Positions 3,389-45,300 of a stretch of DNA of 64,000 bases are shown piece after piece. The notes under the pieces were generated by a model that saw only the letters and a list, made by a program, of their open reading frames with translations, ran no database searches and was not told where the DNA came from. Made by a program: the position numbers and the translations under genes. The first letter of the stretch is position 1, and each line of letters starts with the position of its first letter. Source of the stretch: Naegleria gruberi (Eukaryota); the NCBI GenBank assembly GCA_000004985.1, contig GG738854.1. One strand, written 5' to 3'.

Positions 3389-6300
3389 TTGGATACAGAT
3401 TCAAACCACGCCACATTTGTAGCTCAAATTAATTTACAAGATTTGAGATTTTATCATTCACCAAAAAGTTATTTACCAGAAAAGGGATGGTTATTCTTTT
3501 TTGTTGGATCTGATAATGGCATTCATTCACAAGATATGAAGCAACCATTTTCTTTCTATTGGAATGGTTCAAAGAATGATTTGAAAAGAGTGGAAAAACC
3601 TGAAGATGTCGCGATTGAGTTGGTAAATCGTTTAATTTTTGATGAATCTTGTGAGCAATTGGAATTTCAATATCCAGACAAGTATGAGTATTATTCTACT
3701 TTCTTTAAATTGTTTGGTCATTCAATTTATCATACCTATCCTGAAACTACAGTGTTATTGGCCTCAACAGGTTATGCATTCTTTTTAGAGAATGAAATTG
3801 AGATAAGAAAGAGAAAGGGAGTTCAATCTCTGATTAGTAGATATGAAAGAAGAGGAAAATCTGAATATGTTTCACCTTCTAATGTTTCAATTCTATCTCA
3901 AGATAGCAATGATAATGATGGACAACATAACATGTTTGAGACATTTTATCCTAGTGCTTTGATATTCAGGAGATATAGCTCTATACACCAGAGTAGAATC
4001 ACTGATTTGGATAATAATTCATATCTTCCATTATTTCTCAAGAATTATAAACCAAAAATCAGTGAAGAACCAACAAAATTTTGGAGAAGAACCGATTTTT
4101 TGACTCCAGGTCAAGAAATTAAAGCTCCTAAAAAGATGCTTACTGCAAATTTTGTAAAGCAAGATCCTGTAACTGATTGGGAGGATCAATCACTTCCTGA
4201 AACAGTTTCAAACAAGGATAAGTGTTTCAAAATTAGCTGTATACTCTCTCCTGATGAGTGTGCAGATTTAAGAATTTGCTCCTTACCTTTCTATACCAAT
4301 ATCCAATCAGAATATCCAACAGAATATAGAAATTGTGAAAGAGCTCTATTGAAGAGTCAAAAATTAGCTGACCTATTGTGGGATAGAATTAGCCCATACT
4401 TTAATTCAACAGATTTCAAGAATGTACAACCGTATGGATTTGACAATAGTGGTGTATGGAAACCAATGGAAATTAATCCATGTTTCCGTTTCTCAGTCTA
4501 CACAACAGATGAAACAACAGGAACCTATTTCAAACCTCACAAAGATGCTCAATTTGTTAAGAATGATAATGAAAAGAGTATTTTCACAGTTTTACTCTAT
4601 TTGAACTATGTGAGATTTGGTGGTTCCACAACTTTCCTCCAAAAAGTTAGAGATGAATCAGAAGATGGATCTGAAATGACTTTTAGAATTATTCATGATC
4701 AATCACCTGAATCAGGAGCTGTTGTTATATTCAATCATGATCTTTATCATCAGGGTTCTCCTGTTGAACGTTATGAAAAGATTATTTTGAGAACTGAGAT
4801 TATATTCAAGAGAGTTGACTCTTTGAGTGTTCCTCGTTCTGATTATAGAAATACACAAGATTATCTCAAAGTTAAACAGTTAATTGAGGAATCAAATGAA
4901 TTAGAAAGACAAGGAGATACCAAACAATCACTCCTCAAATATCTTCATGCGTTGGATGTTCAGACAAACATTTCTCCATCTCTCCAATGGTCTGATTTGA
5001 GTAATAAGAGTCATTTGGAGAGATTGCCTGAGGAAATTATTGGTGTTATTTGTTCCTTCTTAACAAGTAGTCAAATTGCAACACTAATGTTGCCACTTTC
5101 TTCTTTATTGAACTCTTACTCTAGAAATCCAACAATTTGGAAGGAAAAATATGAACAAGAATGGAAAGATGAAAACCAAGAAGAACAAGAAGAGGAAGAA
5201 GTTGAAGAAACAGATATTTTATGTTTTTATGATGAAAAACAAGTCAAATGTCAAAGAAATGAAACTATTTTCATTGAGGCATTAAAAGAATATAAGGATT
5301 GGTATGCATTATATGTTTCACGTAAGAGTATGGACAAGTTCTGGTCTCCAGTATTACTCGATACAGGTCGTAGCACCTATCGTTATTCTTTACAAAATAG
5401 TGAAACTGCAGAGAAGGATTTAATGATGTGCAGAAAACCAAATCATCCACAGTATGTATTATTCAATGGATTCAGAATTATAATATTTTAATATAGTTTC
5501 AATTTACCAGGGTTTGGATTGGAAGATATTCTTTCTGGAGCTAGAGCTGCAGATAATTTATACTTGACTCAGCCTCTTCCACTCGTTGACAGTTGTGGAA
5601 GAATTGAAGATTATAAGAATTTCAAGACTTTGTTATTCCAATTGTATGCAAATGATTTGAAAGTGAAATTTCAAATTCACCCTTTCGTGTTAGCAATTCC
5701 ATTTTCTTGGACAGAAAATGAAACTTTGCAGGTAAAGAAATTAATTTACGAACTTGGAATTCCATTATCATGCTTGGTTGACTCTTCCAAATTAATTGCA
5801 CTTAATTATTCTAAACCTAATTGCATTGTTTTGAACATTTCATCAAGTGGTGTTGGTTGTGTTCCAATAAGAAATTATGAACCTTTGAATGAATTGAAAT
5901 TATTCGAACCATTCAATATTGCCGAACAAGTTTCATCTAATATGGAAGTTGGGGATAATATCTATGGAGTGTTGAGATTGGTTCTTACCATTCCACCAAC
6001 TCCACCAGAACTTTACGAAACTCTAAAAGAAATATGGGAAGGATTCATCTATGAATCTGAAATTTCATTGGAAGTGGGTGGATATGAGAGAAGTTTTGAT
6101 GTAACTAGATTATTTGATGCTGGAAACCAATTTTATATTACTGCCTTTGAGGCATTAAGGACAAGAATTGAATCTTTGAATAAGGGTGACGCTAGTAATG
6201 CTGAGCATGATGTTTTGATTTGTGGTGGATTTTCTTCAGTAAAAGGAATGAAAGAAAGGTTAACTCGTGAGATTAGAGAAATTTATCCAAATATCAATTT

Positions 6301-6394
6301 AGAATTCAAATCTGATGATATGGAAGTTATTGGAGGTGCTAAAATATTTTGCAGTCTGCCAAGCTTTAAGGAACAACTCCAGGTTAGTCAATAG
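3389..6394 (+). CDS. Multidomain protein: an N-terminal region of unknown function, a P4H-type 2OG-Fe(II) oxygenase domain, an F-box, an acidic linker and an actin-related (Arp-like) ATPase domain. Exons are >=3389..5451 and 5497..6394. The 5' end is uncertain.
   Basis: The continuous 700-codon ORF 3389..5491 contains the oxygenase motifs FKPHKDAQF (HxD), TVLLYLNYVRFGGSTTF, VVIFNHDLYHQGSPV (distal His) and ILRTEIIF (Arg). The F-box is LERLPEEIIGVICSFLTSSQIATLMLPLSSLLNSY..TIW. The actin phosphate-1-like motif is VLLDTGRSTYRYS. The downstream ORF 5519..6394 is in the same frame and is actin-like: HPFVLAIP, ..CIVLNISSSGVGCVPI, DVLICGGFSSVKGMKERLTREIREI, VIGGAKIFCSL. A 45-nt GTATGT..TATAG segment at 5452..5496 removes the intervening TAA in frame. 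A sequence ending tttag lies immediately upstream of 3389. No ATG-containing upstream exon was found. The first in-frame ATG is at 3536. Confidence 0.6.
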
Positions 6395-22007: not shown

Positions 22008-22089
22008 TTTTTAAAAATCAAGTTAATTTTTTAGTTGATTACAAAATCCTTTACCTGTAAGAAATTTTTAAAATGACAAGTTAAAAAAA

Positions 22090-30585: not shown

Positions 30586-32688
30586 TTACTTTACATTTAG
30601 AAAATAGTCAATTCGTTTTTGTTTCTTATTTGGTTTTTCGTAGGGGTTGATTCTATACCACTTTTCGTTTACAACAATTTCGTTCCTCTCCATAATATGT
30701 GAAATAAATTTTTGTCCTGCTCCTGATACTTCACTCGGCATTTGTCCTTCATTATTGCAAATACTCAATAAATTTGGATAGCATTCCAATATTTCTTCTA
30801 CAACCTCATAATCCAAATCAAATTTATCACTTGCAAACTGATGAAGAAGTGTTGAACCATGTTCATCTTGATAGGCAAGCTCTTCTTCTTCCATGCAATC
30901 TATTCCAAAATCATCCCCTGTGATATGAGAAAAAAGTTGATAAGTATTCAAAAAGGACAAATAGGGTCTAAAGAAATAACTTCTCAAGTTATTGTTATCC
31001 TTAAAAATTATCCAAGCCTTATCCAATATTATGATACAATAATCTTCAGCATTGTTTTTGTTGAAGGAGAGAGAGTTTCTAAGTACATCAATAGCTCTAT
31101 ATTTTTCCATTTTAGTAATTGGGTCGAAATTAAAATCCAAACATGGTTTAAAATCAAGAGTATATTTTTGAAAAGTACTTCGAAGATAATTAGTGTAAGG
31201 TTGTAAGAATGTTGGAGCTTCAAAAGCAGTATAAAAATAATGCAATTCAGGTATATAACATTCAAATAAGGAATGTCCATGTTTGAAAATAGAGTCCAAC
31301 ATTTTTTTCATATTTGAAAGATCTAAACGGTAAAACGAATGTTCACTGGTCATTTGTGAGAACATTAGTGGATGATATTCAGTCAATTCAAACAAATTCA
31401 CTTCAATAACGGGTTTGCCCTCTTCCTCATAGCTAATTCTCTTACAAAAATCTCTTTTGTGAAGAGTAATTTGGTAGCTCTCTGAATTGTTGAAATACTC
31501 AACAAATCTAAGAGTAATTCTTGCATCAACAAATAAACAGTAGATATCCAATTTTTGTTCGAATAATCCTCTTAAGTCTACTAAATCTTGTATCATTACT
31601 GTTGGTCTATAAATTTTCAATTCTTTTCTATTGTCACAAAAATCAATTCTATTCATCAATGGAATTCGTACTTCTTTCAATCCAAAAGCTGAGAAATGGT
31701 TGAGAGAATATACCTCGCTTATTTCATTCAAAATTGGAGCACATCGAATGTATCTAAGTTTGTTATAATTAGTAAGGCAAAGATCTTTTCTATTAATTTT
31801 AGGATGCATAATGTACAATGAATCAGTTAAGGGATTTTTCATAAATTCTCTTTTTGATAATTCTAAACTAGCTCTAACATATTTTCTTTCTCCAAAATCA
31901 TCATCATAAATATATAGAGTATCCAATTGTAAAATTCGTTTTTTCATCATTAAAGCATATTCTCTATTAATCAATCTCATCTTGACACAAGTCATAAATT
32001 CATTATCCACTCTTTTCATACAGGCTGGATTTAATTTCTTTTCCCATAGTCTAGTATTACAATCATCATCACAATGTTTTTCATAAAATTCATCTTGGCT
32101 AATGCCCATTTGCTCACAAGTTATTTTCACATTTCTTTCCATCATTTTGATTCTTTCTGGTTTTGAATAAGTTGGAATGAATGTGATTATTTCATATTTG
32201 ATTTCAATTGGTAAATCTACCAACATTTCACTCTTTGTAATCTCAAGTTGATCATATTTCTGATTTGAAAGTGTTTTTATATCCATAGTTATCCAATGGG
32301 TGGTTACATTATTCAACATTCTATTAATCCTCTCTAATCCTAAACAATCACTTCGAATATTAGTTGACTGCCAAGCTCGAATCTGATTCTTACTGTTAAT
32401 ATCAACAAAATCAATTTGACTAATCTCTAAAACACTTCCTTTTGCACATTGATCAAATAAAAATATCTGAATAGGACTATAATATCTAATTTCATCATTA
32501 GAATATCTATCATAATTTTTTAAATTATAGGAAGGATGATTTGATAATGGACGACTAACAAGACATTCACTAGAATAAAGATGTCTCTCATCTAATACTA
32601 ATACTTCAAATTTATGTGCACTCGGGAAGGAATTTGCTGCATAGTATAACTCTGCCACCAACGATTCTTTGCTTTGGTGTCTTGTCAT
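30586..32688 (-). CDS. Hypothetical 700-aa protein, single exon, no recognisable domain.
   Basis: This is a long uninterrupted ORF beginning with ATG at 32688. Its composition is non-repetitive. The AT-rich genome context makes a chance 2.1-kb ORF very unlikely. Confidence 0.6.
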   Translation of the reverse strand: MTRHQSKESLVAELYYAANSFPSAHKFEVLVLDERHLYSSECLVSRPLSNHPSYNLKNYDRYSNDEIRYYSPIQIFLFDQCAKGSVLEISQIDFVDINSKNQIRAWQSTNIRSDCLGLERINRMLNNVTTHWITMDIKTLSNQKYDQLEITKSEMLVDLPIEIKYEIITFIPTYSKPERIKMMERNVKITCEQMGISQDEFYEKHCDDDCNTRLWEKKLNPACMKRVDNEFMTCVKMRLINREYALMMKKRILQLDTLYIYDDDFGERKYVRASLELSKREFMKNPLTDSLYIMHPKINRKDLCLTNYNKLRYIRCAPILNEISEVYSLNHFSAFGLKEVRIPLMNRIDFCDNRKELKIYRPTVMIQDLVDLRGLFEQKLDIYCLFVDARITLRFVEYFNNSESYQITLHKRDFCKRISYEEEGKPVIEVNLFELTEYHPLMFSQMTSEHSFYRLDLSNMKKMLDSIFKHGHSLFECYIPELHYFYTAFEAPTFLQPYTNYLRSTFQKYTLDFKPCLDFNFDPITKMEKYRAIDVLRNSLSFNKNNAEDYCIIILDKAWIIFKDNNNLRSYFFRPYLSFLNTYQLFSHITGDDFGIDCMEEEELAYQDEHGSTLLHQFASDKFDLDYEVVEEILECYPNLLSICNNEGQMPSEVSGAGQKFISHIMERNEIVVNEKWYRINPYEKPNKKQKRIDYFLNVK

Positions 32689-32900
32689 TTTTTTGATTTT
32701 TAGTTTCCACTTTTATATGGAAATTCGTTGCATTGTCAACTTGGCTTATTAGAATGTGGCTATTAATCAAAATCCAGCCCAGAAAATTGTTGGATAATCT
32801 CATGCAGTTCTTAAAAACCCCAAATGTTTCTTAAAAAATGGTTCATCAGAGAGATTTCAAAAGTTCATAAAAATTGGTTTAAGAAATTACATAAAATAAA

Positions 32901-33560
32901 ATGCTTGAATTGCCTGATGAAATTCTTCTCACCATCTTTTTAATGATTGAAGATGATGACAAGACATGGAGATCATTGATGCTAACCTGTAAATCTCTGA
33001 AAACAATTTGTTATGACTACAGATATCAAATGGTCAACTTTCCGAAAGCTACTATTAAATTATATCAAGGAAAACCAAATCAATACTACATAAGCCTTGT
33101 CCAATTTGATACAAACTATTCAACATACAAAATACCACATAGGATGGATTGGCCTCATCCTGGGAATACAGACGTGATTACTAGATGGTTTAAATTGAGG
33201 GTTGATCCAAAGACAATGCTTATCCATACATCTGATTATCGTTTCACTAGATCAACAGGAAGATGTTCCCACCACCCTGAAAGTGAGACTCAAATACCTT
33301 ATGCAAGTTGTTTTGGATGCGAATCACCTGGATGTGATGATGCTAAAGCTTGTTGTGATCTAACTGGCACAAGATTTAAATTCAATGCTAAATTCCATCA
33401 TGATGGCTGTGCAAGCAACGGATCATGGAAATTTGAGAAACATAATAAGAAAATTAAATTGACAGGTGGTGGTTATTGTGGTTGGACAACTCCTTTAGCA
33501 GCCAAAACAGAAATAGATGCTGTGCTTGGTGGTTGGTATGTTGGTATTGAGCTTGATTAA
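32901..33560 (+). CDS. F-box-like protein with a Cys-rich C-terminal domain, 219 aa.
   Basis: ATG is at 32901. The F-box-like segment is MLELPDEILLTIFLMI..WRSLMLTCKSLKTICYDY. The C-terminal half has many Cys and His residues (CSHHPESETQIPYASCFGCESPGCDDAKACCD, HHDGCASNG). Confidence 0.6.
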   Translation: MLELPDEILLTIFLMIEDDDKTWRSLMLTCKSLKTICYDYRYQMVNFPKATIKLYQGKPNQYYISLVQFDTNYSTYKIPHRMDWPHPGNTDVITRWFKLRVDPKTMLIHTSDYRFTRSTGRCSHHPESETQIPYASCFGCESPGCDDAKACCDLTGTRFKFNAKFHHDGCASNGSWKFEKHNKKIKLTGGGYCGWTTPLAAKTEIDAVLGGWYVGIELD

Positions 33561-33909
33561 ACTCCCTTATTAATGTTAATATTCAATTGATTTAGCTTTA
33601 CAAATTAAATAGCCAAATATGATGCCGTCCTTAACACCTACTGAACTCCTCACCACTTGATTTAGAAAATTAAACATGGTTGTGCGCCTTTAATGGTGCT
33701 TGTTCTTCTAGTTCCCCTTACACTCTAAAGCCTTTTTGTAATGATCAGACCGTTTTTCTTGCCTTTTGGCGCCAATCACCTAAAACAGCCGTAGCATCGT
33801 ATCATCCTTGAAAATGCCGCAAAGTTTGAAACAAAAAAATTGAACTAAGCGTCGTTCACGTTCTCTTTTTCATCCCAAGTGAAGACTACTTTGAAATAAA
33901 CAGGGCACG

Positions 33910-35921
33910 ATGAGCTCGTCTAATACTACTATTGCTTCGTTGGAAGCAGCGATTGCACAAACACACACAGACATGGATACCTTGTGGGTGTTGGTATGTA
34001 CCATGATGGTCTTCCTTATGCAGACTGGTTTTTCTTTTTTGGAAGCCGGGTCTGTTAGAAGCACCTCTGTGGTTAATATTTTAACAAAGGTTAGTAAATA
34101 ACAATGAAATAATGGCATACTAACCAATTCAGAATTTATTAGGAACTTGTATGGTCACTATTGCTTGGTGGATTCTAGGATATGGTTTGGCGTAAGTAAT
34201 AATAATTATTTGATGAAGAAATTGTAATCCACTTGCTGATGATTGATGCCATCCACTATAACAGTTTTGGTGACGATACCACATCAGGAACAAGAAACGG
34301 TTTTATAGGCAATGCGTAAGTTTTTAAAAGTCCTCATCAAAATTCTGAAATAATTACTCCTATTTGATATAATATTTTCATTAATATTAATAATATGTGA
34401 TTTCGTTACTGCTTGGTAAGTGTTTTTCAAACCACAAGGCTTGTGATATTAATTATTATTTAGGAGTTCATATAAATCATGGCATATTTGGGTCTTTGAA
34501 TGGGCCTTCGTTGCTGATACTACAACAATTTTATCAGGTGCTATTTCTGAAAGAACCACTACTCATGGTTATTTGATTTATGCTGCCATCTTTGCTGGTT
34601 GGATTTATCCAGTTGTTGCTCACTGGTTCTGGTCTACTTCTGGTTGGTTGTCTCCATTAAAGAAGGATATTGAAGGACCTGGATCATTGGGAGTTATTGA
34701 TTTTGCTGGTTGTGCTGTTGTTCACCTTTTGGGAGGTGTTGCCTCTCTCTGTGGTGCTGTTATTATGGGTCCAAGAAAGGGAAGATGGGTTAAGAAGAAT
34801 GAAAATTACTTCAAGCCTCACAATATTCCTTTCCAATTCTTGGGTACCTTGTTATTGTTCTTGGGTTGGTTTGGTTTCAATCCGTAAGTATTTCCCTTAA
34901 TTACCTTAATTCATTTAACCAATTAATGATAATAATATTAATTTTATAATAATAATTCATTCACAGAGGTTCTACTACTGCCATTTCTAATGGAATGTCT
35001 ATTGTTGCTGCTAAGGCTACAGTAAATACTGTTTTAGCTGCTGCATCTGCTGGTCTTACTGGTGCTTTCATTAGATTGTGTATTCCAAAATTCCTAGTAT
35101 GGGATGCTGGTAATCTTCAAAATTGTGTTTTGGCTGGTCTCGTTGCTGTTACAGCTGGTTGTGCTACTGTTGAACCTTGGGGAGCTGTTTGTATTGGTAT
35201 TATTGCTGCTCCTATTTATATTGGACTTTCATTCCTTTTGAGAAAATTAAAGATTGATGATCCTTTGGATGCTGTTCCAGTCCATGGTGGTTGTGGTTTG
35301 TGGGGTTTAATTGCTGCTGGTATCTTCTCATCACCACGTGGTGTTTCTGCTGCTTATAATGTTGTTTCAACTGGTTCATTGTTCTGGGGTAACGGTGAAC
35401 AATTTGGTATGCAATTCTTGGGTGCTGTTGTTGTTATTGCTTGGGGTGCTGCTTGGTGTATTCCATTGTTCATTATTATGAGATTCATTCCAAGAGGTTT
35501 TGGTTTCAGAATTTCTGAAAAACAAGAAAAGGCTGGAATAGATGTTGCTTTGCATGATGTTGATGGTTATGCTAATATTAATCAAGAAGATTTGGATGAA
35601 AGTTTCAAGAATTGGGTTGAATTTGTTGAATTCCAAAAGGAAAAGAAAAAGCAAAAGATTGCTGAAGAATTGAAGGGTGCTACACCAAAGAAGTCTGAAT
35701 CAACCCAAGATAAGAATGATGTTGAATTGAAGGAAAATAAGCCAATTGAAGCACAAACTGTTGCTACTGCCACTCCAGTTGAAACCACCAATAACGCTAC
35801 TACCCAAGAAACTCCTGTTGCTACTGAAGATAAGGATGTCGCTACCGAAAAGGATGTTGAATTGAAAGAAAATATCACTGCTGAAAACATTAATGTTGAA
35901 ACACCACAAACTAATGTTTAA
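33910..35921 (+). CDS. Amt/MEP-family ammonium transporter. The 5 exons are 33910..34089, 34132..34190, 34264..34314, 34464..34883 and 34967..35921.
   Basis: Exon 1 reads MSSSN..LWVLVCTMMVFLMQTGFSFLEAGSVRSTSVVNILTK. Exon 2 reads NLLGTCMVTIAWWILGYGL. Exon 3 reads AFGDDTTSGTRNGFIGNA. Exon 4 contains AISERTTTHGYLIYAAIFAGWIYPVVAHWFWS and DFAGCAVVHLLGG and ends FLGWFGFNP. Exon 5 reads GSTTAISNGMS..VHGGCGLWGLIAAGIF, followed by a repetitive Thr/Glu-rich tail. The introns are 34090..34131, 34191..34263, 34315..34463 and 34884..34966, all GT..AG and in phase. Confidence 0.9.
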
Positions 35922-35971
35922 GTAGAAATTATGTGTTTAATTTCAAACATTATAAAAAATAAACTAACTGA

Positions 35972-36925
35972 TTAATTAAAGATTTGAGCTGATCCATCAA
36001 CTATTGGTAGAATTAATTGACCTGTTTTTTCATCAATAGCAATTGCATAATGATAAATAGTATCGAGTGGAAATGATAAATCTACACGAATTAATTTTTC
36101 AAATTGTTTTTGAAACATGTTAACTCTCTTTGCTTTTCTGTCAACTTGATAAATTAAATCTGTTGATTTTTCATAGAAAATTCCATAAGAACCTCTATCC
36201 ATTAAAGTTGTGTCTGGCTTATTAATAAGGTACCACTTTCCATCTTGTTCATTAATTTTATACATTTCTAGTGGACTCGATGCTTCTAATGCAAAGAATG
36301 ATGTTCTAGATAATACCATTTCTCTTTCTGGTGTGAAAACAATTCCAAAACCACTTCCAATATCCATTTCAGGTACAAATATTGGATCGCTTACTCTTTC
36401 ACCATTTTCAATATCAAATGCAAAAATAGATAAATCAACAACATAAACCAAATTATCCAAAACTGATACGCCCCAAGAACTTTGTAAAATACCAACTTGA
36501 GTTTTCCAAATTAATCCATCATCTTCCTCATTCGTTAATAAAATATTTAAATCAAATTTAAAACACTTTGAATGACCATCTGTATCAACACCTGTCATTA
36601 ATAGAAATGATTCATATATATGCATACCATGTGTCGATATTAAAGTATTAATTGATTTTTTATATTTACTAGTAAATCTATTAAATAAATGTAATTTTCT
36701 ATTTCCTCCTAAAATTATTAAATCTTTATAAATTACAATATCATAACATGTGTAGAGCTTTAGTGATGAATGTAAAAGTGTTTGAATTTTATGATATTGT
36801 TTTGAAAATGATTTTAAATTCATTCCGATTTTATTTTTTAAATAATTAAATAAATATTGTGATGGTGATTGATTTTCACTCTTATCATCATTAGTATGAA
36901 AATCAATCAGATAAAGAGTTGTCAT
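35972..36925 (-). CDS. Hypothetical 317-aa protein, single exon, unknown function.
   Basis: ATG is at 36925 in an A-rich context. The ORF is uninterrupted. No motif was recognised. Confidence 0.5.
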   Translation of the reverse strand: MTTLYLIDFHTNDDKSENQSPSQYLFNYLKNKIGMNLKSFSKQYHKIQTLLHSSLKLYTCYDIVIYKDLIILGGNRKLHLFNRFTSKYKKSINTLISTHGMHIYESFLLMTGVDTDGHSKCFKFDLNILLTNEEDDGLIWKTQVGILQSSWGVSVLDNLVYVVDLSIFAFDIENGERVSDPIFVPEMDIGSGFGIVFTPEREMVLSRTSFFALEASSPLEMYKINEQDGKWYLINKPDTTLMDRGSYGIFYEKSTDLIYQVDRKAKRVNMFQKQFEKLIRVDLSFPLDTIYHYAIAIDEKTGQLILPIVDGSAQIFN

Positions 36926-38009: not shown

Positions 38010-41000
38010 TTATGCAACATAATGTAATATTGAATTATTTTGTTCATCTCTTTTCAAAAAATCTCTTTCAAGTAAAGATTCAATTCTCTTCTTAATTTGT
38101 TTAACATCAGGAGTAAATATTGGAATTAATTGTGAACTAACTTCATTAAATAATGATTGAATATTCATTGTCTTTCTTGTTTTCATAATTCTAACAACAC
38201 ATGCATCTAAAATATGAACTCTATCTGTACTAACACTTGTTTGTGTACCTTGTGTATCTTTTTGTGTTATTCTTGGTAATGGAATTTTAAGTTTAAATGA
38301 TCGAGATGTAAAATTTTCATTCAATGAAAGTGTCATTTCCTTCTGATTAAATATTAAAATTGGAAATTTTGTTGATGATAATGAAATTATTGATTGTTTC
38401 AAATCAATATCTGAATTATTATTCAAATCAACTGTAGTATTACTTCCAAATGAACTTGATCTTTGATTCATTCCATTATTGGTACTATTATTATTATTGC
38501 TACTATTACTACTATTATTCTGATTAATTGTACCATCAAAATTTAAACCAGTTAAATCTTCAATTTGTTTAACAGATAATTGTAATTGATCATTAAAAAG
38601 TAATAAAATTGAAGCTTGTAAAGTAGAAAGTTCAAATAAATGATTACCATTAATATAATGAGCATGAATTTGAGCCATACTCTTTGAATAAACCCATTTT
38701 AAAACTCTTTTACCATTTCTAGAATCATAAAATTGTTTAAATAAATGTTGTGATTCTAAAAATTCCTTTGGAAGTAACATGTGTTCTTTTGCTTTTAAAG
38801 GCCACATTCCCATAGTTAAAACTGTAACATTAACATCATATGAAAGTTGTAATTGATTTGTTGTAATATAATTTTGAAATTCTAATTTCATATCATTGGC
38901 CATTGTTTTATCTGTTAACATTTTCTCTAATTTATAAGTATCAGCAACACCTCTATAATGATATTTTAATTTAGAAATCATCATTCTTTCTTCTAATTCT
39001 TGATAATCAGTTACTAATAATCTTATAGCAAATAATTTACGATGTTCTTCAATAAACATATCTCTATCTGAAAAGAATTGAATAAAATCAACAATACAAT
39101 CTAATTTCTTTTCATCACTCTTCTTTCTTAATACATCATCTGTATAATAGGCAAATAATTGTACAATTCTAATTTCAAATTGACCAAGTGTTATATTCTT
39201 ATTAACAAATTGTTTAAATCCTTCTGACATGGCCTTATGAAATATTACATTTCTTGAAAATGATCCATTTGTTATATTTTTCATCTTTTGATGAAGTTCT
39301 AATAAATCTTGAACATAGGAATCAATTAAAAATCTAACTACTTTACTATATACTTCATTAGATATTATATGAATATTATTATTAGATGTATTATTAGATG
39401 TATTATTATTATTTGATGTATTAGATGTACTACCATTATTATTACCATTATTATTATTATTATTTAAATTATTATCATTAGATTTAATCATTTCAGATGA
39501 AGCATTTTCATACTTGACAAATAATTCATTTCCAACAAAAATTAAATATTGTTTAAATAAATCAGCAATTGGATCTAAACCACCTTCTAATCTATTCATT
39601 AAACGATATAATCTTTTCAAATCATCAAATTTTTCATCTCTAATTAAAATTTTAACACCACTTCCACTCATTTCTAATAAACGTTTTTGCATATTTTTCA
39701 ATAATTCCAAATCACATAATTTCATTAACTTGTTTTGTGAAAAACTAGTTGGAAATATTGCTTGAATTCTAGTTTGTTCTTGTTGAATACATTCTTCAGC
39801 AAATAATAAATATTCTGTTAAATTATACTTTTCAATCCATTCATTAGCAATTTTATGATAAAATTCACTTGTTTCCTTCTCTGCATATTTTTCAAATTCA
39901 TCAACATAGACCTCACTTGTTGAATGTTGTTGTTGTTGTTGTTGTGTAGATGATGATGATAATTGATTTGATGTTGAATCAATAATCATATTATCATTAT
40001 TACTGCTTGTACCACCACTGCTTGTACCAATATTATTACTTTGTGTAGTATTAGTATTAGTAGTATTATTATTATTATTATTAGCATGATGAAGACCACC
40101 TGTATTTAAAGTAATATTTGGATCATCCATTTCAGAAAATAATTGTAAAGTTTGTTTTAATAATTGTCTTTGTGAAATGTAATAAGAATTATCGGAATTA
40201 TAAAATTTACGATCTTGTGTAATTTTATCAAGTAAAATTTGTCTTAATTGAACTTTACAATGATCAAATATACTTGTTTTAAATAAATAATAAGCTTCAT
40301 ATTTTAAAGTTCTTTTAGTATTTGAAGCAACATAAAATTGATCTAAATATTTAAATATATAGGAACAAAATTTTACAAAAATGTCTCTAAAATTAATCCA
40401 AATAAAAACAATTTCATTTAATAAATCTTCTCCATATTTATCTTTTAATTTTGGTAATATTGTTGTTTGTAAATATTTTTTAATATAAATTGAATATAAA
40501 TTATATAATTGTTCTTCATAATAAACTGAATCAGGTAAAATACATAAATTATATATAGTTGTAAATAATAATACATGTTCATCATTCTCCCATGGTTTTA
40601 ATTCATTCAAATTTTGACTTTCTCTTTTACCATTTACAAATGTTTCTAATTTTTTTAAACTTTTATAAATTTCATACCAAGTTTCACGTAATTTTTGACT
40701 TCTTGTTTGATCATTTGTATTATTAGTTGTAGTATTATTAGTATTATTACCATTATTAATAGTGGATGGAGTTGTTGAACTTGTTCCACCACTACTACTA
40801 CTAGTAGCAGTGATAGTATTATTATTATTATTAGAATTATTATTAGAATTATGATTAATTTGATGAGAATTGGTTGGAGTATGATGAAGATGACTATTTG
40901 GAGTTGAAGAATTTGGTTGAATGGGTGGTTTCTTTTGAGGAGTAGAAGGATTTGAATTAATTGATTGATTTCCTAGATTAGTTGGTGGTTGTTGTAAAAA

Positions 41001-41990
41001 GAAAGGAGGTAAATTTGATGAAGAATTTGATCTTAATCTATTTTGTAAAGTATTTTGTAAATTTGGATTTGTAATAGGAATAGGTGGTATTGGTAAATTA
41101 TTAGAAGAAGAATTTGATCTCAATCTTTGATTTGGAATTAAATTACTAGGTGTTGGAATAAATAAATTAGGAGTTATAGTTGGATTAGGATAAGGAATAT
41201 TTCCACTATTAGAAGTATTTGAATTTGATCGATTTCTTTGAGCTGCAGCTGCTGCTTGTAAAAAAGGTGGAGTTGTAAATAAGAAATTATTCATTGATAG
41301 AGGTGGTAAATTTGAAATATTTGGAATTCCATTAATTGTTGGAATAAGTGGAAGATTTGGATGATTCAAGTTTGGTTGTGGATTTAAAGTTGGTTGACTA
41401 GTTGTTGGTAATTGAGTTGAATTATTATTAGGTATTATTGAGGTAGAAGTTATTGGATTGGTCATGTGAAGAAGATTTGGAATTGTTGGATTAATAGTAT
41501 TAATTGGAATATTTGTTGAAGTAGTACCATTAGCATTGATATGATTTGGAATTTGACTTGTTGATTGTTGTTGTTGTTGAGGATTAATTTTAGGCTTTTT
41601 TAATGCTTGTTCAAAATTTTGTTGCTGAAGTCTGATAGAGGAGTTATTTATAGATTGTGAGGGTTGTGCTTGATTATTAATTAATGATGAAGTAATCCCA
41701 GCATTTGATTGAATTCGGTTATGATGACTATTAGATGGTATCGTACTATTAGTATTGTTGTTATTATTGATTGGTATCATCATTGGATTACTGTTGACAG
41801 TTGCTTGATGAGAAGGTTGATGGAAGGCATGTTGTTGGGTCAAAATTTGAGTTGATGTTGAATTTATAGTATTATTACTAGTATTATTTACTGTTCCTAT
41901 AGGAGGTTCATCGGTTTGATGTGATGAATTGGTTGACGATGATGATGTTTGTTGCTGATCCTTTAGATGATCTTCGTAGGTTCTCTTCAT
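38010..41990 (-). CDS. Cullin-family protein, 1326 aa, with a 600-700-aa low-complexity (Asn/Gln/Ser/Thr/Pro-rich) N-terminal extension. Single exon.
   Basis: ATG is at 41990. The C-terminal cullin-homology and neddylation region is VVRIMKTRKTMNIQSLFNEVSSQL..IKKRIESLLERDFLKRDEQNNSILHYVA. Cullin-repeat-like segments occur in the middle (KLEKMLTDKTMANDMKLEFQNY). Confidence 0.8.
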   Translation of the reverse strand: MKRTYEDHLKDQQQTSSSSTNSSHQTDEPPIGTVNNTSNNTINSTSTQILTQQHAFHQPSHQATVNSNPMMIPINNNNNTNSTIPSNSHHNRIQSNAGITSSLINNQAQPSQSINNSSIRLQQQNFEQALKKPKINPQQQQQSTSQIPNHINANGTTSTNIPINTINPTIPNLLHMTNPITSTSIIPNNNSTQLPTTSQPTLNPQPNLNHPNLPLIPTINGIPNISNLPPLSMNNFLFTTPPFLQAAAAAQRNRSNSNTSNSGNIPYPNPTITPNLFIPTPSNLIPNQRLRSNSSSNNLPIPPIPITNPNLQNTLQNRLRSNSSSNLPPFFLQQPPTNLGNQSINSNPSTPQKKPPIQPNSSTPNSHLHHTPTNSHQINHNSNNNSNNNNNTITATSSSSGGTSSTTPSTINNGNNTNNTTTNNTNDQTRSQKLRETWYEIYKSLKKLETFVNGKRESQNLNELKPWENDEHVLLFTTIYNLCILPDSVYYEEQLYNLYSIYIKKYLQTTILPKLKDKYGEDLLNEIVFIWINFRDIFVKFCSYIFKYLDQFYVASNTKRTLKYEAYYLFKTSIFDHCKVQLRQILLDKITQDRKFYNSDNSYYISQRQLLKQTLQLFSEMDDPNITLNTGGLHHANNNNNNTTNTNTTQSNNIGTSSGGTSSNNDNMIIDSTSNQLSSSSTQQQQQQHSTSEVYVDEFEKYAEKETSEFYHKIANEWIEKYNLTEYLLFAEECIQQEQTRIQAIFPTSFSQNKLMKLCDLELLKNMQKRLLEMSGSGVKILIRDEKFDDLKRLYRLMNRLEGGLDPIADLFKQYLIFVGNELFVKYENASSEMIKSNDNNLNNNNNNGNNNGSTSNTSNNNNTSNNTSNNNIHIISNEVYSKVVRFLIDSYVQDLLELHQKMKNITNGSFSRNVIFHKAMSEGFKQFVNKNITLGQFEIRIVQLFAYYTDDVLRKKSDEKKLDCIVDFIQFFSDRDMFIEEHRKLFAIRLLVTDYQELEERMMISKLKYHYRGVADTYKLEKMLTDKTMANDMKLEFQNYITTNQLQLSYDVNVTVLTMGMWPLKAKEHMLLPKEFLESQHLFKQFYDSRNGKRVLKWVYSKSMAQIHAHYINGNHLFELSTLQASILLLFNDQLQLSVKQIEDLTGLNFDGTINQNNSSNSSNNNNSTNNGMNQRSSSFGSNTTVDLNNNSDIDLKQSIISLSSTKFPILIFNQKEMTLSLNENFTSRSFKLKIPLPRITQKDTQGTQTSVSTDRVHILDACVVRIMKTRKTMNIQSLFNEVSSQLIPIFTPDVKQIKKRIESLLERDFLKRDEQNNSILHYVA

Positions 41991-42411
41991 TTTTAATCAA
42001 GAAATCCAAGAGGGTTTAGCTGAGGTTTTTTTTGTTCAAAATATTTCTACACCAGCAAAAGAAGGCGGATTTGAGAGGTGTGGACTGATGATATGATATA
42101 AAAAGAGCATGGCACTTCTCAAAAGAATCTACACTATGAAAAGACATTTAAAAAAGAAACAGTGAGGAGGTTATTAGCTGACTAACACAAGATGATGATG
42201 TGGTAACATGGTATTAATTACCCATGTTGAACAATGAAGAGACAAGAGATGAAGAAGTGGCTGGTGTGTGAAAAATATCTCACTGTTCACCAAATTACTT
42301 GAAAATAAATTATTTTAATAGAGAGAAAGTTATGTGTGGTTAGTACATTCAAATCCATTGAATGTAATGAGTGTATTTCATCTTCTTTGGAAGTTGTGTG
42401 TATTTGTACAA

Positions 42412-44883
42412 TTAAGCAACGTAATGGTAAATACAATTTGCACTACCTGCTTGTGAATTATTATCTCTTTCTAAATATTCTCTGTCAATTAAACTTTCAA
42501 TTCTCTTCTTTACATCTTGACCTTGAATTGAAAAACGAACTTGAGATAAAACTTCAGTTAATAATTGTTGATGTGTTAATTGTTTTCTTGTTTTCATAAT
42601 TCTAACAATTGCTGCATCAATAACATAGGAACGATCCAATAAAACTTTTTCAGTTGTTTCTTCTCTTTCTTTCTTTGTTTCTTTCAATTGGAATGAATCA
42701 ATTTTAATCTTTGTTTTTGATTGTGAATAATCTTCATTAACAAAGAAAATATCATTCTCTTCAACTTGAGTTCCTTTAGTTTCTTTCTTAAGAATTTTTT
42801 CCTTATGGAATGCTAATGATTGTAAAGTTAAAATTAATTGTTTTTCATCTTGAATTCCTGTTGATTGTTTAAGTTCTCGTACAGAAATCTTTTCTTTAGA
42901 ATTGAATTGTAATAATACAACTGCTTGATAGAATGATATTATCAATTCCTTTTTACCACATGGGAATAAGGCTTTCATTGAACATTGTCCCAAGTTTGAA
43001 ACCCATTTCAAAATACGTCCAGAATATTTGTGTGTATAAAAATCTCTAAATGAATCTTGTAATAATGAAAGTTCCATTGGTAAATTTAAAGTATCAGGTG
43101 TATAATTTGGCCAATAACTCAATGTTAATACTTTAACACCGAGGGAGGATGCAATTTGAAGTGCTCTATCCTTTTCTTCACCTACTTCATTGATAAATTT
43201 CTTAAATTCTGCACTAGTTTCATATCCTTTCATTAATTCCGCTGAAATATCAATATCTTTAAACATTCCTTCTAATTTGTTTGAGAATTGTGTACCACAT
43301 TCTGCTCTCAATTTAGAAATCATTGTCTTTTCTGCATCATATGATGAAGTCTTTCCAAATAATAATCTTTTACCCAAATCCTTCTTATAAAATGCTTCAA
43401 ATATATCTTTACCATTAATATATTTGAAAATTGTTAGAGCATTATCCATACATCTTTCTAATTCATCATCTGTTAAACCCTTACTATTCTTTAATTTTCC
43501 ATCAATATATTTTGCAATAAGTTCACTTGGTTTGTTAGGAACAATATTTAAGAAATATTCAAAGGCTTTTCTTATAGCATGTTTAAATTCTTCATTCTTA
43601 TGGAAAGATTGTTCATGTAATTGATCAATTTTACTCTTAAATTGAAGAGTATCTTGAACCATATTTTTATCATTTTGATCATCATCAACAATTCTTTTAC
43701 CTCTAATCTTTAAATAGACTGTAAATGCTTCTTTAATTGCATCAAGTTCATTGACTAATTTAAATAATCCATACATTCTATTAAGATCCATAATACGATT
43801 AAGATCCATTAATTCTTCAAATCCTTTATCTAAAATTGTTTTAACATGTTTCTTTATCAATTCATTTTCTACTATTTGTATAAGAGGTTTCTTTGTTAAT
43901 TTACTTAAATAATTTGTAACTCTATCAACTTCTTGTCTTAATCTAGATTCAACATATTGTAAATATTCTGGTACATTTAATTTATCAATATTATTTAAAC
44001 CATCATTAGAATAAAATGATCTAGTTTCTTCTAAAAATGATTTTTCAAATTCATCTTCATATAAATGTAAAGATGTTAACATTCTAATTAAACGTTGAAC
44101 AACTGATTTATCAATACTTTCTCCACTTCTTTCATGTTTAATTAAAATTAAAATCCCAGATATTATTTTTTTAAGTAAATGTTCATTAATCTTTAAATTT
44201 TGTTTAAATATTTGTAAATTCATATCCCAAATAGATTTATCTGGTATTGTCATTACATAAGACCTATCTAAATATAAGAAAATAGATCTTATCATATTAA
44301 TTTGATCAGTGAATTCTTCCCAACTTTTAACTACAATATTTAAAAATGTTGTGTGATCTGTTGTTGCTTTATGTCCTAAATCATAAATTACATTTTCAAT
44401 ATGTTTAGAACAAAGTAATTTCAATTTGGAATAGGTACTTTCTGATTTTTTATGTCTTGCCAAATCGGAACAAAGTTGATAAAGTTCTTCTTGTCCAGTA
44501 CAAATTTTCTCCTTTTTTTGAATGGCAACAACAGCGTTATTTAACTTGTTCCATGTTTCTTCTTCAAAGTTAGATACTGTCGGTTTTAAAGACAGAGGTT
44601 TGATTTTAAGACAAGTTATCTTTTTCTTTGTTGGTGTAACTGAAGGTGATGGATTTGTTAAACCTCCTCCTGTTGATGCTGTTGTATTGTTTTTAGTAAA
44701 TCCACTTGTTGATGGTATTGTTGTAGTCATTTTAGGCTTTGGAATTTCGACAACTTCTTCTTCGTCCTCAATTATAATGGTATGATGATAGGCTTTGGTT
44801 TTTTTAGTTTGATCGGATTGTAAGTCAAGATTAGCTTGAGGTTGTTTTCTTTTCTTTGATGATGATATGGCGAAGGTAGACAT
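42412..44883 (-). CDS. Canonical cullin (Cul1/Cul3-like), about 823 aa, single exon. It lies tandem to the preceding cullin.
   Basis: The ATG at 44883 is preceded by an in-frame TTG. Cullin motifs include LEGMFKDIDISAELMKGY, IDAAIVRIMKTRKQLTHQQLLTEVLSQVRF and KKRIESLIDREYLERD..IYHYVA. Confidence 0.85.
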   Translation of the reverse strand: MSTFAISSSKKRKQPQANLDLQSDQTKKTKAYHHTIIIEDEEEVVEIPKPKMTTTIPSTSGFTKNNTTASTGGGLTNPSPSVTPTKKKITCLKIKPLSLKPTVSNFEEETWNKLNNAVVAIQKKEKICTGQEELYQLCSDLARHKKSESTYSKLKLLCSKHIENVIYDLGHKATTDHTTFLNIVVKSWEEFTDQINMIRSIFLYLDRSYVMTIPDKSIWDMNLQIFKQNLKINEHLLKKIISGILILIKHERSGESIDKSVVQRLIRMLTSLHLYEDEFEKSFLEETRSFYSNDGLNNIDKLNVPEYLQYVESRLRQEVDRVTNYLSKLTKKPLIQIVENELIKKHVKTILDKGFEELMDLNRIMDLNRMYGLFKLVNELDAIKEAFTVYLKIRGKRIVDDDQNDKNMVQDTLQFKSKIDQLHEQSFHKNEEFKHAIRKAFEYFLNIVPNKPSELIAKYIDGKLKNSKGLTDDELERCMDNALTIFKYINGKDIFEAFYKKDLGKRLLFGKTSSYDAEKTMISKLRAECGTQFSNKLEGMFKDIDISAELMKGYETSAEFKKFINEVGEEKDRALQIASSLGVKVLTLSYWPNYTPDTLNLPMELSLLQDSFRDFYTHKYSGRILKWVSNLGQCSMKALFPCGKKELIISFYQAVVLLQFNSKEKISVRELKQSTGIQDEKQLILTLQSLAFHKEKILKKETKGTQVEENDIFFVNEDYSQSKTKIKIDSFQLKETKKEREETTEKVLLDRSYVIDAAIVRIMKTRKQLTHQQLLTEVLSQVRFSIQGQDVKKRIESLIDREYLERDNNSQAGSANCIYHYVA

Positions 44884-45300
44884 CAAAAACTATTACTATT
44901 AGATTTTCTAGAATGGACTAAATTGGTTTAACAACATCAAAATCCTAACTAGTAAAACTATTGAAAAATAACCCTAATAATAATAACAATAATATAATAC
45001 TACTATGGTAGGGTACAGAGAATGTGTTTCCTGTTGTTGTTGATGTATTTTTTTAAATAAGTTTTTCTTCGGAAGTAATTTTAGAGTGCATGTTATTCCG
45101 CCCTCACTTTGGATTTTAAAGCCTTCAATTCAATTGAGGATCTTTGAATAATATTATTATAAAATTGATAATTTAAAATTGATAAAGAACTCTTTTTAAT
45201 TGAAATATAACATTATTAATTGATAAAGAACTCTAAAATTGAAATATTATAATAAACATTAAAATAACATATATTTATAAACAAATTAAAACAATAATAT

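What the first reader, a model, noticed from the sequence alone, without database searches (positions are those of the whole stretch)
3389..44886. The window is dense in cullin-RING ligase components
In about 42 kb there are two tandem cullin genes (38010..41990 and 42412..44883). There are three F-box proteins: the oxygenase-Arp fusion at 3389..6394, the F-box/LRR/Sel1-like protein at 18252..22007, and the F-box/Cys-rich protein at 32901..33560. There is also a double-BTB KCTD-like protein (22090..25447), the domain class that adapts Cul3 ligases. The individual calls rest on motifs seen in the sequence. Whether they act together is inference. Dictyostelids have many F-box genes, so enrichment could be chance. 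The tandem cullin pair with one member carrying a 650-aa low-complexity extension is unusual, however.
Basis: inference. Interest (0 to 1): 0.5.

Follow-up and report, generated by a model that had tools for sequence, protein, structure and literature searches.

The report
Conserved cullin gene pair, unrelated adaptor neighbours
This stretch of the Naegleria gruberi genome holds two ubiquitin-ligase scaffold (cullin) genes that have stayed side by side across related amoebae, but the nearby F-box and BTB adaptor genes are species-specific neighbours, and nothing shows they work with those scaffolds.

Summary
All six reading frames exist at the stated coordinates, but the window is Naegleria gruberi NEG-M (Heterolobosea), not a dictyostelid. 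Gene 42412-44883 is a clear Cul4 orthologue. Gene 38010-41990 ("CulX") is a complete cullin that can be neddylated. It belongs to a fast-evolving family found across Heterolobosea, and its nearest relatives are Cul1-type cullins. It is not a recent copy of the neighbouring Cul4.

The head-to-tail pair Cul4 then CulX is conserved in N. lovaniensis, N. fowleri and Willaertia magna, together with neighbouring DOCK, Q_salvage and ankyrin genes. It is absent in Acrasis kona.

The low-complexity N-terminal extension is about 430 aa, not 650. It is open in all three Naegleria species and carries conserved short motifs.

Only one of the three F-box calls passes Pfam's cut-off. The double BTB_2 call is confirmed.

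The three adaptor genes near the cullins lie in two blocks that are missing from the otherwise collinear N. lovaniensis region. Relatives of the BTB gene sit on other contigs, and the F-box/TPR gene has no detectable orthologue. Cul4 uses DDB1-DCAF receptors, not F-box or BTB proteins.

A functional cullin-RING ligase cluster is therefore not supported. Whether the adaptor count exceeds chance remains open, because no genome-wide family counts were available. Overall the finding is ordinary, apart from a modest synteny curiosity.

The parts
42412..44883 (-). Cul4 orthologue, 823 aa from the ATG. Full cullin fold, with the neddylation motif IVRIMKTRK near the C-terminus.
   Evidence: Pfam Cullin 602 bits over profile positions 1-620, and Cullin_Nedd8 90 bits. 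Best solved structures are CUL4B at 643 bits and CUL4A at 639 bits, against CUL3 at 388 bits. It falls inside the Cul4 clade with 94% neighbour-joining (NJ) bootstrap. It is 61-63% identical to the upstream cullin in L001, L002 and L006.
41991..42411 (.). 421-bp spacer between the Cul4 stop codon and the CulX start codon. The two genes are head to tail on the minus strand.
   Evidence: Coordinates. The equivalent spacer is 298 bp in N. lovaniensis, 375 bp in N. fowleri and 221 bp in Willaertia.
38010..41990 (-). CulX, 1326 aa. A heterolobosean Cul1-type cullin made of an N-terminal disordered extension, a cullin core with three low-complexity inserts, and the neddylation motif VVRIMKTRK.
   Evidence: Pfam Cullin 317 bits and Cullin_Nedd8 84 bits. 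Identical, in the aligned blocks, to an N. gruberi partial predicted protein. Orthologues exist in N. fowleri, N. lovaniensis, Willaertia, Acrasis and Pharyngomonas. Its sister group consists only of bikont Cul1-type sequences in 92% of NJ bootstraps, and of Cul4 in 0.3%.
40701..41990 (-). N-terminal extension of CulX, aa 1-430, rich in N/S/T/P/Q. It contains the conserved block PNLP..LPPLS..NFLFT.PPFLQA and two to three RxRSNS motifs.
   Evidence: It is stop-free, with a chance probability of 4e-13 given the local base composition. The other two frames have 22 and 63 stops. The block and motifs are conserved in three Naegleria species. A Willaertia isoform has an extension of about 205 aa that also starts MKRS. 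The Acrasis (803 aa) and Pharyngomonas (783 aa) proteins lack a long extension.
32901..33560 (+). F-box plus GON-domain protein, 219 aa. It is NAEGRDRAFT_64523 / XP_002680224.1.
   Evidence: F-box-like 31.1 bits (cut-off 24.3), F-box 23.6 bits and GON 31.5 bits. The exact sequence is in NCBI and UniProt as an F-box domain-containing protein. No match in L001 or L006.
18252..22007 (-). 1251-aa protein with a probable N-terminal F-box (aa about 62-105), LRR-like repeats and TPR/Sel1-like repeats.
   Evidence: TPR_1 55 bits. LRR_4 at 20.2 bits and Sel1 at 22 bits are below their cut-offs. F-box-like at 18.9 bits is below the 24.3 cut-off. No homologue at E<=1e-5. The AlphaFold model was unusable, with pLDDT 36.7.
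22090..25447 (+). Six-exon gene: 22090-22564, 22602-23494, 23546-23693, 23737-24293, 24343-24479, 24523-25447. It encodes 1044 aa with two BTB_2 domains, a central Gad2-type region and a WWE-like C-terminus.
   Evidence: Splice model. BTB_2 44.6 bits in two stretches. Relatives carry BTB_2, Gad2 (PF26128) and WWE (39.4 bits in the N. fowleri protein P0014). There are at least four paralogues in N. lovaniensis, on other contigs.
3389..6394 (+). 2OG-Fe(II) oxygenase, then a probable F-box, then an actin-like (Arp) region. The two ORFs are joined by a 45-nt in-frame intron at 5452-5496.
   Evidence: 2OG-FeII_Oxy_3 33.1 bits and Actin 37.2 bits. F-box-like at 17.1 bits is below the cut-off. Intron.
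30586..36925 (.). Block A, present in N. gruberi but absent from the collinear N. lovaniensis region. It holds a 700-aa ORF, the F-box/GON gene, a second ammonium transporter and a 317-aa ORF.
   Evidence: It lies between the conserved ankyrin gene (36926-38009) and the conserved gene at 29519-30559. tblastn against L001 finds no match.
18252..27157 (.). Block B, present in N. gruberi but absent from the collinear N. lovaniensis region. It holds the F-box/TPR gene, the BTB gene and an Arf GTPase gene.
   Evidence: It lies between the conserved Zn_clus gene (28040-29244; 63% identical to L001 16263-16469) and the conserved ammonium transporter (15964-about 18100). tblastn against L001 finds no match.

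Best explanation
The window is an ordinary chromosomal segment of Naegleria gruberi.

Its one real feature is a head-to-tail pair of two anciently diverged cullin paralogues that has been kept together within Naegleria and Willaertia. The upstream gene is the Cul4 orthologue. By established knowledge of CRL4 ligases, it should act as a neddylated scaffold that binds Rbx1 at its C-terminus and DDB1-DCAF receptors at its N-terminus (inferred).

The downstream gene, CulX, belongs to a fast-evolving cullin family found across Heterolobosea. Its nearest relatives are Cul1-type cullins. It keeps the complete cullin fold and the neddylation lysine. It most likely scaffolds an SCF-like ligase through Skp1 and F-box proteins in general (inferred, not shown). 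In Naegleria it has gained an N-terminal disordered extension of about 430 aa. The conserved RxRSNS motifs and hydrophobic block in that extension suggest phosphorylation or docking control (speculative).

The neighbouring F-box and BTB genes have four unrelated architectures, and the literature describes both families as diversified in N. gruberi. The three nearest ones lie in blocks missing from the collinear region of N. lovaniensis. Their closeness to the cullins is best read as lineage-specific gene gain or rearrangement, not as a selected functional cluster.
For: - Species identity.
- Cul4 orthology.
- CulX has a complete cullin fold and the VVRIMKTRK motif.
- CulX family occurs in Acrasis and Pharyngomonas. 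The next-nearest proteins are named 'cullin 1' by IMG.
- NJ tree of the C-terminal domain: the heterolobosean CulX clade has 100% support. Its sister group is only Cul1-type in 92% of bootstraps and Cul4 in 0.3%.
- Pair conserved with its DOCK, Q_salvage and ankyrin neighbours in N. lovaniensis, N. fowleri and Willaertia.
- Pair absent in Acrasis.
- Adaptor genes lie in N. gruberi-only blocks between conserved anchor genes.
- BTB relatives elsewhere, with no cullin nearby.
- No F-box/TPR orthologue found.
- The supplement of PMC4327156 names N. gruberi as a case of BTB and F-box diversification.
- The extension is stop-free and has conserved motifs.
Against: - If all four adaptor calls are accepted, the local density is nominally high. 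It is 4 of 15 non-cullin genes here against 0 of 54 genes in the control loci I fetched (Fisher p about 0.002). The binomial P(>=4) stays below 2e-4 unless F-box plus BTB genes exceed about 300 genome-wide. I could not get the genome-wide counts, so chance is not demonstrated.
- If CulX is Cul1-like, F-box proteins are its expected partners, so a link is not excluded.
- The Cul1-type placement rests on an NJ tree of the C-terminal domain only, with long branches, and the strict sister node has 66% support.
- The adaptor-binding first repeat gives no class signal. Its best match is Cul3 at E=0.02. The whole N-terminal-domain profile scores Cul3 at 80.7 bits, above Cul1 at 66 and Cul4 at 52.
- Synteny was checked only within 10 kb of the cullins in the other species.
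Confidence: 0.75

Rival explanations
1. The six genes form a functional cullin-RING ligase neighbourhood. The F-box and BTB proteins are dedicated substrate receptors of the adjacent cullins, kept close for co-regulation.
For: - Nominal enrichment if the sub-threshold F-boxes are counted.
- CulX is Cul1-like, the cullin class that uses F-box receptors.
- The BTB protein ends in a WWE-like domain, which is typical of ubiquitin-system proteins.
- The F-box/TPR and BTB genes are transcribed divergently, with 82 bp between their start codons.
Against: - None of the three nearby adaptor genes is present in the collinear N. lovaniensis region, or within 10 kb downstream of CulX in Willaertia.
- BTB relatives are on other contigs with no cullin nearby.
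- The F-box/TPR gene has no detectable orthologue.
- Cul4 does not use F-box or BTB receptors (established knowledge).
- No Cul3, Skp1, Rbx1, DDB1 or Nedd8 gene was found in the window.
- Two of the three F-box calls are below Pfam's cut-off.
Confidence: 0.07
2. The cullin pair is a tandem duplication of Cul4. CulX is a runaway copy whose true origin is hidden by fast evolution and long-branch effects.
For: - The two genes are adjacent, on the same strand and 421 bp apart, and two cullins adjacent by chance is unlikely (0.1-0.5%).
- With the whole protein as query, the best single solved-structure match is CUL4B at 165 bits, marginally above CUL1 at 159 bits.
Against: - CulX groups with Cul4 in only 0.3% of NJ bootstraps, and with Cul1-type sequences in 92%.
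- CulX-type cullins exist in Acrasis and Pharyngomonas.
- In Acrasis the CulX gene is not next to a Cul4 gene. The family therefore predates the adjacency as far as sampled.
- CulX is nearer to Cul1-type proteins such as P0005 (375 bits) than to its own neighbour (137-149 bits).
Confidence: 0.08
3. CulX is functionally Cul3-like and scaffolds BTB adaptors, possibly including the neighbouring double-BTB protein.
For: A profile of the CulX N-terminal domain scores highest against solved Cul3 N-terminal domains: 80.7 bits, against 66 for Cul1 and 52 for Cul4. The first repeat alone also has Cul3 as its only weak hit, at E=0.02.
Against: - The alignment to Cul3 starts after helix H2, so it does not cover the main adaptor-contact helix, and the first-repeat match is not significant.
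- The C-terminal-domain tree places CulX with Cul1-type cullins and away from the Cul3 clade, which has 91% support.
- The BTB gene is not syntenic with CulX in other species.
Confidence: 0.1

Closest known systems
CUL4A/CUL4B, the scaffold of CRL4 (DDB1-DCAF) ligases
   Same: Gene 42412-44883 matches full length (643 bits to CUL4B). It has the cullin repeats, the cullin homology domain and the IVRIMKTRK neddylation motif, and it falls in the Cul4 clade.
   Different: Its 100-aa N-terminal lead-in is not alignable to the human proteins. Binding to DDB1 was not tested.
Cul1-type cullins of plants, stramenopiles and other protists (SCF scaffold)
   Same: CulX's C-terminal domain groups with these sequences. 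The nearest proteins outside Heterolobosea are labelled 'cullin 1' by IMG. CulX has the same overall fold and neddylation motif.
   Different: - Very long branch: 33-38% identity in the C-terminal domain.
- The first cullin repeat is diverged beyond class recognition.
- It has a 430-aa disordered N-terminal extension and three low-complexity inserts.
- Binding to Skp1 is untested.
Dictyostelium cullins CulB, CulC and CulD, which carry homopolymer inserts
   Same: Poly-N/S/T inserts interrupt the cullin homology domain (loop before the FNxxF motif in the Marin 2009 alignment). This is apparently the same region as the CulX insert at aa 1153-1190, by eye only, since no alignment placing the CulX insert was printed.
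   Different: The Dictyostelium proteins are a different lineage and belong to different cullin classes. As far as the C-terminal alignment shows, they have no long N-terminal extension.
KCTD-type (T1/BTB_2) Cul3 adaptors
   Same: Gene 22090-25447 carries BTB_2-type domains (44.6 bits), the BTB subtype found in KCTD proteins. Several KCTD proteins bind Cul3 (established knowledge).
   Different: It has two BTB_2 domains, a Gad2-type region and a WWE-like C-terminus in 1044 aa. That is not the KCTD architecture. Binding to Cul3 is untested, and no Cul3 gene is nearby.
FBXL-type F-box/LRR receptors of SCF ligases
   Same: Gene 18252-22007 has an N-terminal LPxxVL...VCK motif followed by LRR-like repeats.
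   Different: The F-box (18.9 bits) and LRR (20.2 bits) scores are below Pfam's cut-offs. It has a long TPR/Sel1-like tail and no detectable homologues.

Membership tests
Cullin family (both genes) | Cullin repeats plus cullin homology domain recognised by the Pfam Cullin model above its gathering score | tested here: met
   602 bits and 317 bits against a cut-off of 33.2.
Cullin family (both genes) | C-terminal neddylation domain with the conserved lysine in the VRIMK motif | tested here: met
   Cullin_Nedd8 at 90 and 84 bits. IVRIMKTRK and VVRIMKTRK are visible in the translations and are invariant in the CulX orthologues.
Cul4 class (gene 42412-44883) | Orthology to CUL4A/B rather than to other cullin classes | tested here: met
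   CUL4B at 643 bits against CUL3 at 388 and CUL1 at 252. Inside the Cul4 clade with 94% bootstrap.
Cul4 class (gene 42412-44883) | N-terminal domain binds DDB1 | not testable with these tools
   This needs a binding assay or complex prediction. Only single-chain prediction was available.
Cul1 class / SCF scaffold (CulX, 38010-41990) | Phylogenetic placement with Cul1-type cullins | tested here: inconclusive
   The sister group is only Cul1-type in 92% of NJ bootstraps, but the strict sister node has 66% support. The tree uses the C-terminal domain only and has long branches. Whole-protein scores against solved structures are ambiguous: CUL4B 165 bits, CUL1 159 bits.
Cul1 class / SCF scaffold (CulX, 38010-41990) | Skp1-binding surface on helices H2 and H5 of the first cullin repeat | tested here: inconclusive
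   A profile of the first repeat has no significant match to any solved cullin. The best is Cul3 at E=0.02 and 17.9 bits.
Recent tandem duplicates (the cullin pair) | The two neighbours are each other's closest paralogues | tested here: not met
   They share 26-27% identity, and CulX is nearer to Cul1-type proteins. CulX is sister to Cul4 in 0.3% of bootstraps.
F-box proteins | F-box motif scoring above Pfam's gathering cut-off | tested here: met
   Gene 32901-33560: F-box-like 31.1 bits (cut-off 24.3) and F-box 23.6 bits (cut-off 20.5).
F-box proteins | F-box motif scoring above Pfam's gathering cut-off (genes 18252-22007 and 3389-6394) | tested here: not met
   18.9 and 17.1 bits against a cut-off of 24.3. 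The only weak hits are F-box families or the F-box-related PRANC domain, so these are probable divergent F-boxes. The structure check failed, with pLDDT 36.7.
BTB (T1/KCTD-type) Cul3 adaptors | BTB_2 domain present | tested here: met
   44.6 bits in two stretches on the spliced 1044-aa product. Relatives score 69-86 bits.
BTB (T1/KCTD-type) Cul3 adaptors | KCTD architecture (a single BTB plus a short C-terminal domain) and binding to Cul3 | tested here: not met
   The architecture is two BTB_2 domains, Gad2 and WWE-like in 1044 aa. Cul3 binding is not testable here.
Functional gene cluster of ligase components | Gene neighbourhood conserved in related species | tested here: not met
   Only the cullin pair and its non-ligase neighbours are conserved. 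The adaptor genes are absent from L001 and L006, and BTB relatives are on other contigs.
Functional gene cluster of ligase components | Co-expression or physical interaction of the members | not testable with these tools
   No expression or interaction data were available.

The most novel reading that the evidence does not exclude
The Cul4-CulX pair, kept head to tail with a spacer of 220-420 bp since before Naegleria and Willaertia split, is a co-regulated unit. In addition, the Naegleria-specific 430-aa disordered extension of CulX acts as a built-in regulatory or docking module that changes how this Cul1-like ligase is switched on or recruits substrates. The extension has conserved RxRSNS motifs, which resemble basophilic-kinase sites, and the LPPLS..NFLFT.PPFLQA block. 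This would be a cullin regulated through its own N-terminus rather than only through exchangeable adaptors.
Probability: 0.1. Interest if true: 0.4.

Novelty: new member of a known kind. Interest (0 to 1): 0.15.

Why it matters
It matters little for ligase biology as it stands. All the parts are ordinary members of known families in a published genome, and the apparent cluster is not conserved.

There are three modest points of value:
- It corrects the source organism and the N. gruberi gene model for CulX. The public model is partial and splices out coding low-complexity segments.
- It identifies a cullin lineage found across Heterolobosea, probably the group's Cul1, with a Naegleria-specific disordered extension.
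- It records a cullin-cullin adjacency conserved across Naegleria and Willaertia, which could be used to ask whether the two scaffolds are co-regulated.

Tried and rejected
- **Genome-wide F-box and BTB counts for N. gruberi.** Eight literature searches and several papers gave only a qualitative statement of BTB and F-box diversification (PMC4327156 supplement) and "9 cullin-family genes" in the Naegleria pangenome (PMC9928731). The genome paper is not held.
- **Exact-sequence look-ups in N. gruberi.** These found no indexed contig, so no official gene models could be read.
- **AlphaFold model of the putative F-box/LRR region of gene 18252-22007.** Mean pLDDT was 36.7, which is unusable.
- **Sequence searches against solved structures.** The F-box/LRR region gave only one non-significant match (E = 0.32, unrelated endonuclease) and the oxygenase domain gave no match at all.
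- **Homologue search for the F-box/TPR protein.** No hits.
- **Were the two ammonium-transporter genes recent inverted duplicates flanking a mobile segment?** Rejected. They show no blastn or tblastx similarity at the thresholds used, and only the copy at 15964-18100 is orthologous to the N. lovaniensis gene.
- **Could the N. gruberi-only blocks be giant-virus insertions?** No viral relatives were found for the F-box/TPR protein or the 700-aa ORF. The BTB gene has spliceosomal introns and cellular paralogues.
- **Assigning CulX's adaptor class from its first cullin repeat.** No significant class signal.
- **ORF 30586-32688.** It has a motif resembling LPIEI, but Pfam gives no hit even at E<=1. 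It was not counted as an F-box protein.
Full report
**Source of the window.** The sequence is about 30% G+C. The downstream cullin ORF is identical, block for block, to an NCBI "predicted protein, partial [Naegleria gruberi]".

**Checking the calls.**
- Both cullins are solid. Gene 42412-44883(-) scores Pfam Cullin 602 bits and Cullin_Nedd8 90 bits. Gene 38010-41990(-) scores 317 and 84 bits.
- The BTB gene needed a splice model. Five GT-AG introns of 37-51 nt, with GTATGT or GTAAGT donors, join six exons into a 1044-aa product. It scores 44.6 bits on BTB_2 in two stretches.
- Only the F-box in 32901-33560 passes Pfam's cut-off (31.1 bits against 24.3). That protein also has a GON domain at 31.5 bits.
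- The motifs in 18252-22007 and 3389-6394 reach 18.9 and 17.1 bits. The only weak hits they give are F-box families or the F-box-related PRANC domain, so they are probable divergent F-boxes, but they are unproven.
- An AlphaFold model of the first of these was unusable, with pLDDT 36.7. Searches against solved structures found no significant match.
- The oxygenase-Arp fusion is plausible. A 45-nt in-frame intron at 5452-5496 removes the single stop codon.

**The two cullins.**
- Gene 42412-44883 is the Cul4 orthologue. Its best solved relatives are CUL4B and CUL4A at 643 and 639 bits, against 388 bits for CUL3. In a neighbour-joining (NJ) tree of the cullin homology domain it falls inside the Cul4 clade with 94% bootstrap. 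Reference sequences for that tree came from the supplement of Marin 2009 (PMC2785787).
- The other gene, which I call CulX, could not be assigned to a class by simple similarity. With the whole protein as query, CUL4B scores 165 bits and CUL1 159 bits. A profile of the N-terminal domain scores Cul3 at 80.7 bits, Cul1 at 66 and Cul4 at 52. The adaptor-binding first repeat alone has no significant match.
- An exhaustive HMMER search showed a sharp family boundary. Relatives scoring 463-839 bits include Acrasis kona "cullin" (803 aa) and a Pharyngomonas kirbyi protein (783 aa). Scores then drop to 339 bits or less, for proteins that IMG labels "cullin 1".
- In the tree, the heterolobosean CulX clade has 100% support. 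Its sister group consists only of Cul1-type sequences from bikonts in 92% of bootstraps. It is Cul4 in 0.3%.
- CulX keeps the VVRIMKTRK neddylation motif in every orthologue.
- I conclude that CulX is a fast-evolving cullin found across Heterolobosea, most probably the group's Cul1-type scaffold, and not a recent copy of its neighbour. The caveats are that the tree is NJ only, uses the C-terminal domain only and has long branches.

**The extension.** Alignment with orthologues places the start of the cullin fold at about residue 430 (RSQKLRETW...), so the extension is about 430 aa, not 650. Three further N/S/T-rich inserts total about 145 aa.
- The extension is stop-free, with a chance probability of 4e-13 at the local composition. 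The other two frames carry 22 and 63 stops.
- N. fowleri and N. lovaniensis encode similar lengths, 1302 and 1283 aa.
- The three species share the block PNLP..LPPLS..NFLFT.PPFLQA and two to three RxRSNS motifs.
- A Willaertia isoform has an extension of about 205 aa with the same MKRS start. The Acrasis and Pharyngomonas proteins are of normal length.
- The public N. gruberi model is partial and splices out coding low-complexity segments.

**Synteny.** The order DOCK, Q_salvage, Cul4, CulX, ankyrin gene is conserved in N. lovaniensis (L001), N. fowleri (L002, where the contig ends at CulX) and Willaertia magna (L006). In Acrasis kona the CulX gene is flanked by a P4-ATPase gene and no Cul4, so the adjacency is not ancestral to Heterolobosea as far as sampled.

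Downstream of CulX, N. gruberi and N. lovaniensis share this gene order:
- the ankyrin gene (window 36926-38009);
- the gene at 29519-30559;
- a Zn_clus gene (28040-29244; 63% identical in its zinc-cluster exon);
- the ammonium transporter at 15964-about 18100;
- the gene at 14746-15822.

N. gruberi has two extra blocks between these anchors. Block A (30586-36925) contains the F-box/GON gene. Block B (18252-27157) contains the F-box/TPR gene, the BTB gene and an Arf gene. None of these has a match in L001 or L006. The BTB gene has at least four relatives in N. lovaniensis, all on other contigs. The two loci I read have no cullin or F-box gene. The F-box/TPR protein has no detectable homologue.

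**Is the density more than chance?**
- For the cullin pair, yes. With 5-9 cullin-family genes (nine in the Naegleria pangenome; PMC9928731) among about 15,700 genes (my recollection of the genome paper), some pair being adjacent has probability 0.1-0.5%. The pair is also conserved.
- For the adaptors I could not obtain genome-wide counts. The literature says only that N. gruberi shows BTB and F-box diversification (PMC4327156 supplement).
- A sensitivity calculation gives P(>=4 adaptors in 15 genes) below 2e-4 unless the two families together exceed about 300 genes. With only the two firm calls, P(>=2) is 0.4-3%, which means 4-34 such windows per genome.
- As a crude control, the 54 non-target genes in the loci I fetched have no F-box or BTB annotation. 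Fisher p is 0.002-0.008 with four adaptor calls and 0.04-0.10 with two.
- A local excess is therefore possible. However, it is post hoc, rests on sub-threshold motifs, and lies exactly in the non-syntenic blocks. That pattern fits lineage-specific gene gain or rearrangement at least as well as a selected cluster.

**Mechanism.**
- By established knowledge, Cul4 scaffolds use DDB1-DCAF receptors, so none of the neighbouring adaptors fits Cul4.
- BTB adaptors need Cul3, and no Cul3 gene is in the window.
- F-box proteins would fit a Cul1-like CulX, but so would every other F-box protein in the genome.
- No Skp1, Rbx1, DDB1 or Nedd8 gene is in the window.
- The best-supported picture is two independent neddylated scaffolds whose genes happen to be linked in Naegleria and Willaertia, next to unrelated, lineage-specific adaptor genes.

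**Verdict.** All components are members of known families in a published genome. What remains of interest is the conserved cullin pair and the Naegleria-specific extension of a Cul1-like cullin. Interest is low.

Noticed in passing
window 59898-64000: The last 4103 bases are a run of N, and composition falls to zero from 60 kb. This is probably padding or the end of the scaffold.
   Followed up: partly
window 22090-25447; P0011-P0015: The BTB gene belongs to a Naegleria multigene family with the architecture two BTB_2 domains, Gad2 (PF26128) and WWE. The central region has a G-G...D-x-D pattern resembling a nucleotidyltransferase, with only a faint Pol-beta hit (E=0.07). BTB joined to WWE is an unusual combination.
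   Followed up: partly
window 22007-22090: The F-box/TPR gene (minus strand) and the BTB gene (plus strand) are head to head, with only 82 bp between their start codons. This suggests a shared bidirectional promoter. The arrangement is not conserved at the N. lovaniensis BTB loci L003 and L004.
   Followed up: partly
window 3389-6394: One gene appears to combine a prolyl-hydroxylase-type 2OG-Fe(II) oxygenase, a probable F-box and an actin-related domain. Its N-terminus starts only 147 bp after the upstream kinase gene's stop codon and lacks an early ATG, so the true 5' end is unclear. An oxygenase tethered to an F-box is intriguing, because Skp1 is prolyl-hydroxylated in other protists (my own knowledge, not tested here).
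   Followed up: partly
window 32901-33560: A GON domain (31.5 bits; known from animal ADAMTS-9/20 and GON-1 proteases) follows the F-box in a 219-aa protein. This is an unexpected pairing in a protist.
   Followed up: no
window 22565-24522 and 5452-5496: Introns are very short (37-51 nt), with GTATGT or GTAAGT donors and T-rich TAG acceptors. Some are multiples of three, so they can pass as in-frame sequence interrupted by a single stop.
   Followed up: partly
window 38010-41990 versus P0001: The public N. gruberi gene model for CulX is partial. It starts at residue 455 and treats four coding stretches as introns: three low-complexity inserts and the conserved segment around aa 877-921. The N. 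fowleri and N. lovaniensis models keep them.
   Followed up: yes
window 9620-14062: ORFs with NHL repeats, an EGF-like module, a probable transmembrane segment and a protein kinase domain lie in a row on the plus strand. They are probably one receptor-kinase-like gene. A second kinase gene is at 21-3241.
   Followed up: no
window 15964-18100 and about 33870-35921: There are two ammonium-transporter genes on opposite strands. They are divergent paralogues with no nucleotide or tblastx match. Only the first is orthologous to the N. lovaniensis gene at the syntenic position.
   Followed up: yes
window 54000-58000: G+C content falls to 17-22%, the lowest in the window, partly over an ORF (56317-58335) with an alpha/beta-hydrolase match.
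   Followed up: no
L006 (Willaertia magna JBEGDK010000163.1) 2065-7170: In Willaertia, a SIMPL-domain gene and a stretch of about 4.4 kb with no called gene sit between Q_salvage and Cul4. These are absent in the Naegleria species.
   Followed up: no
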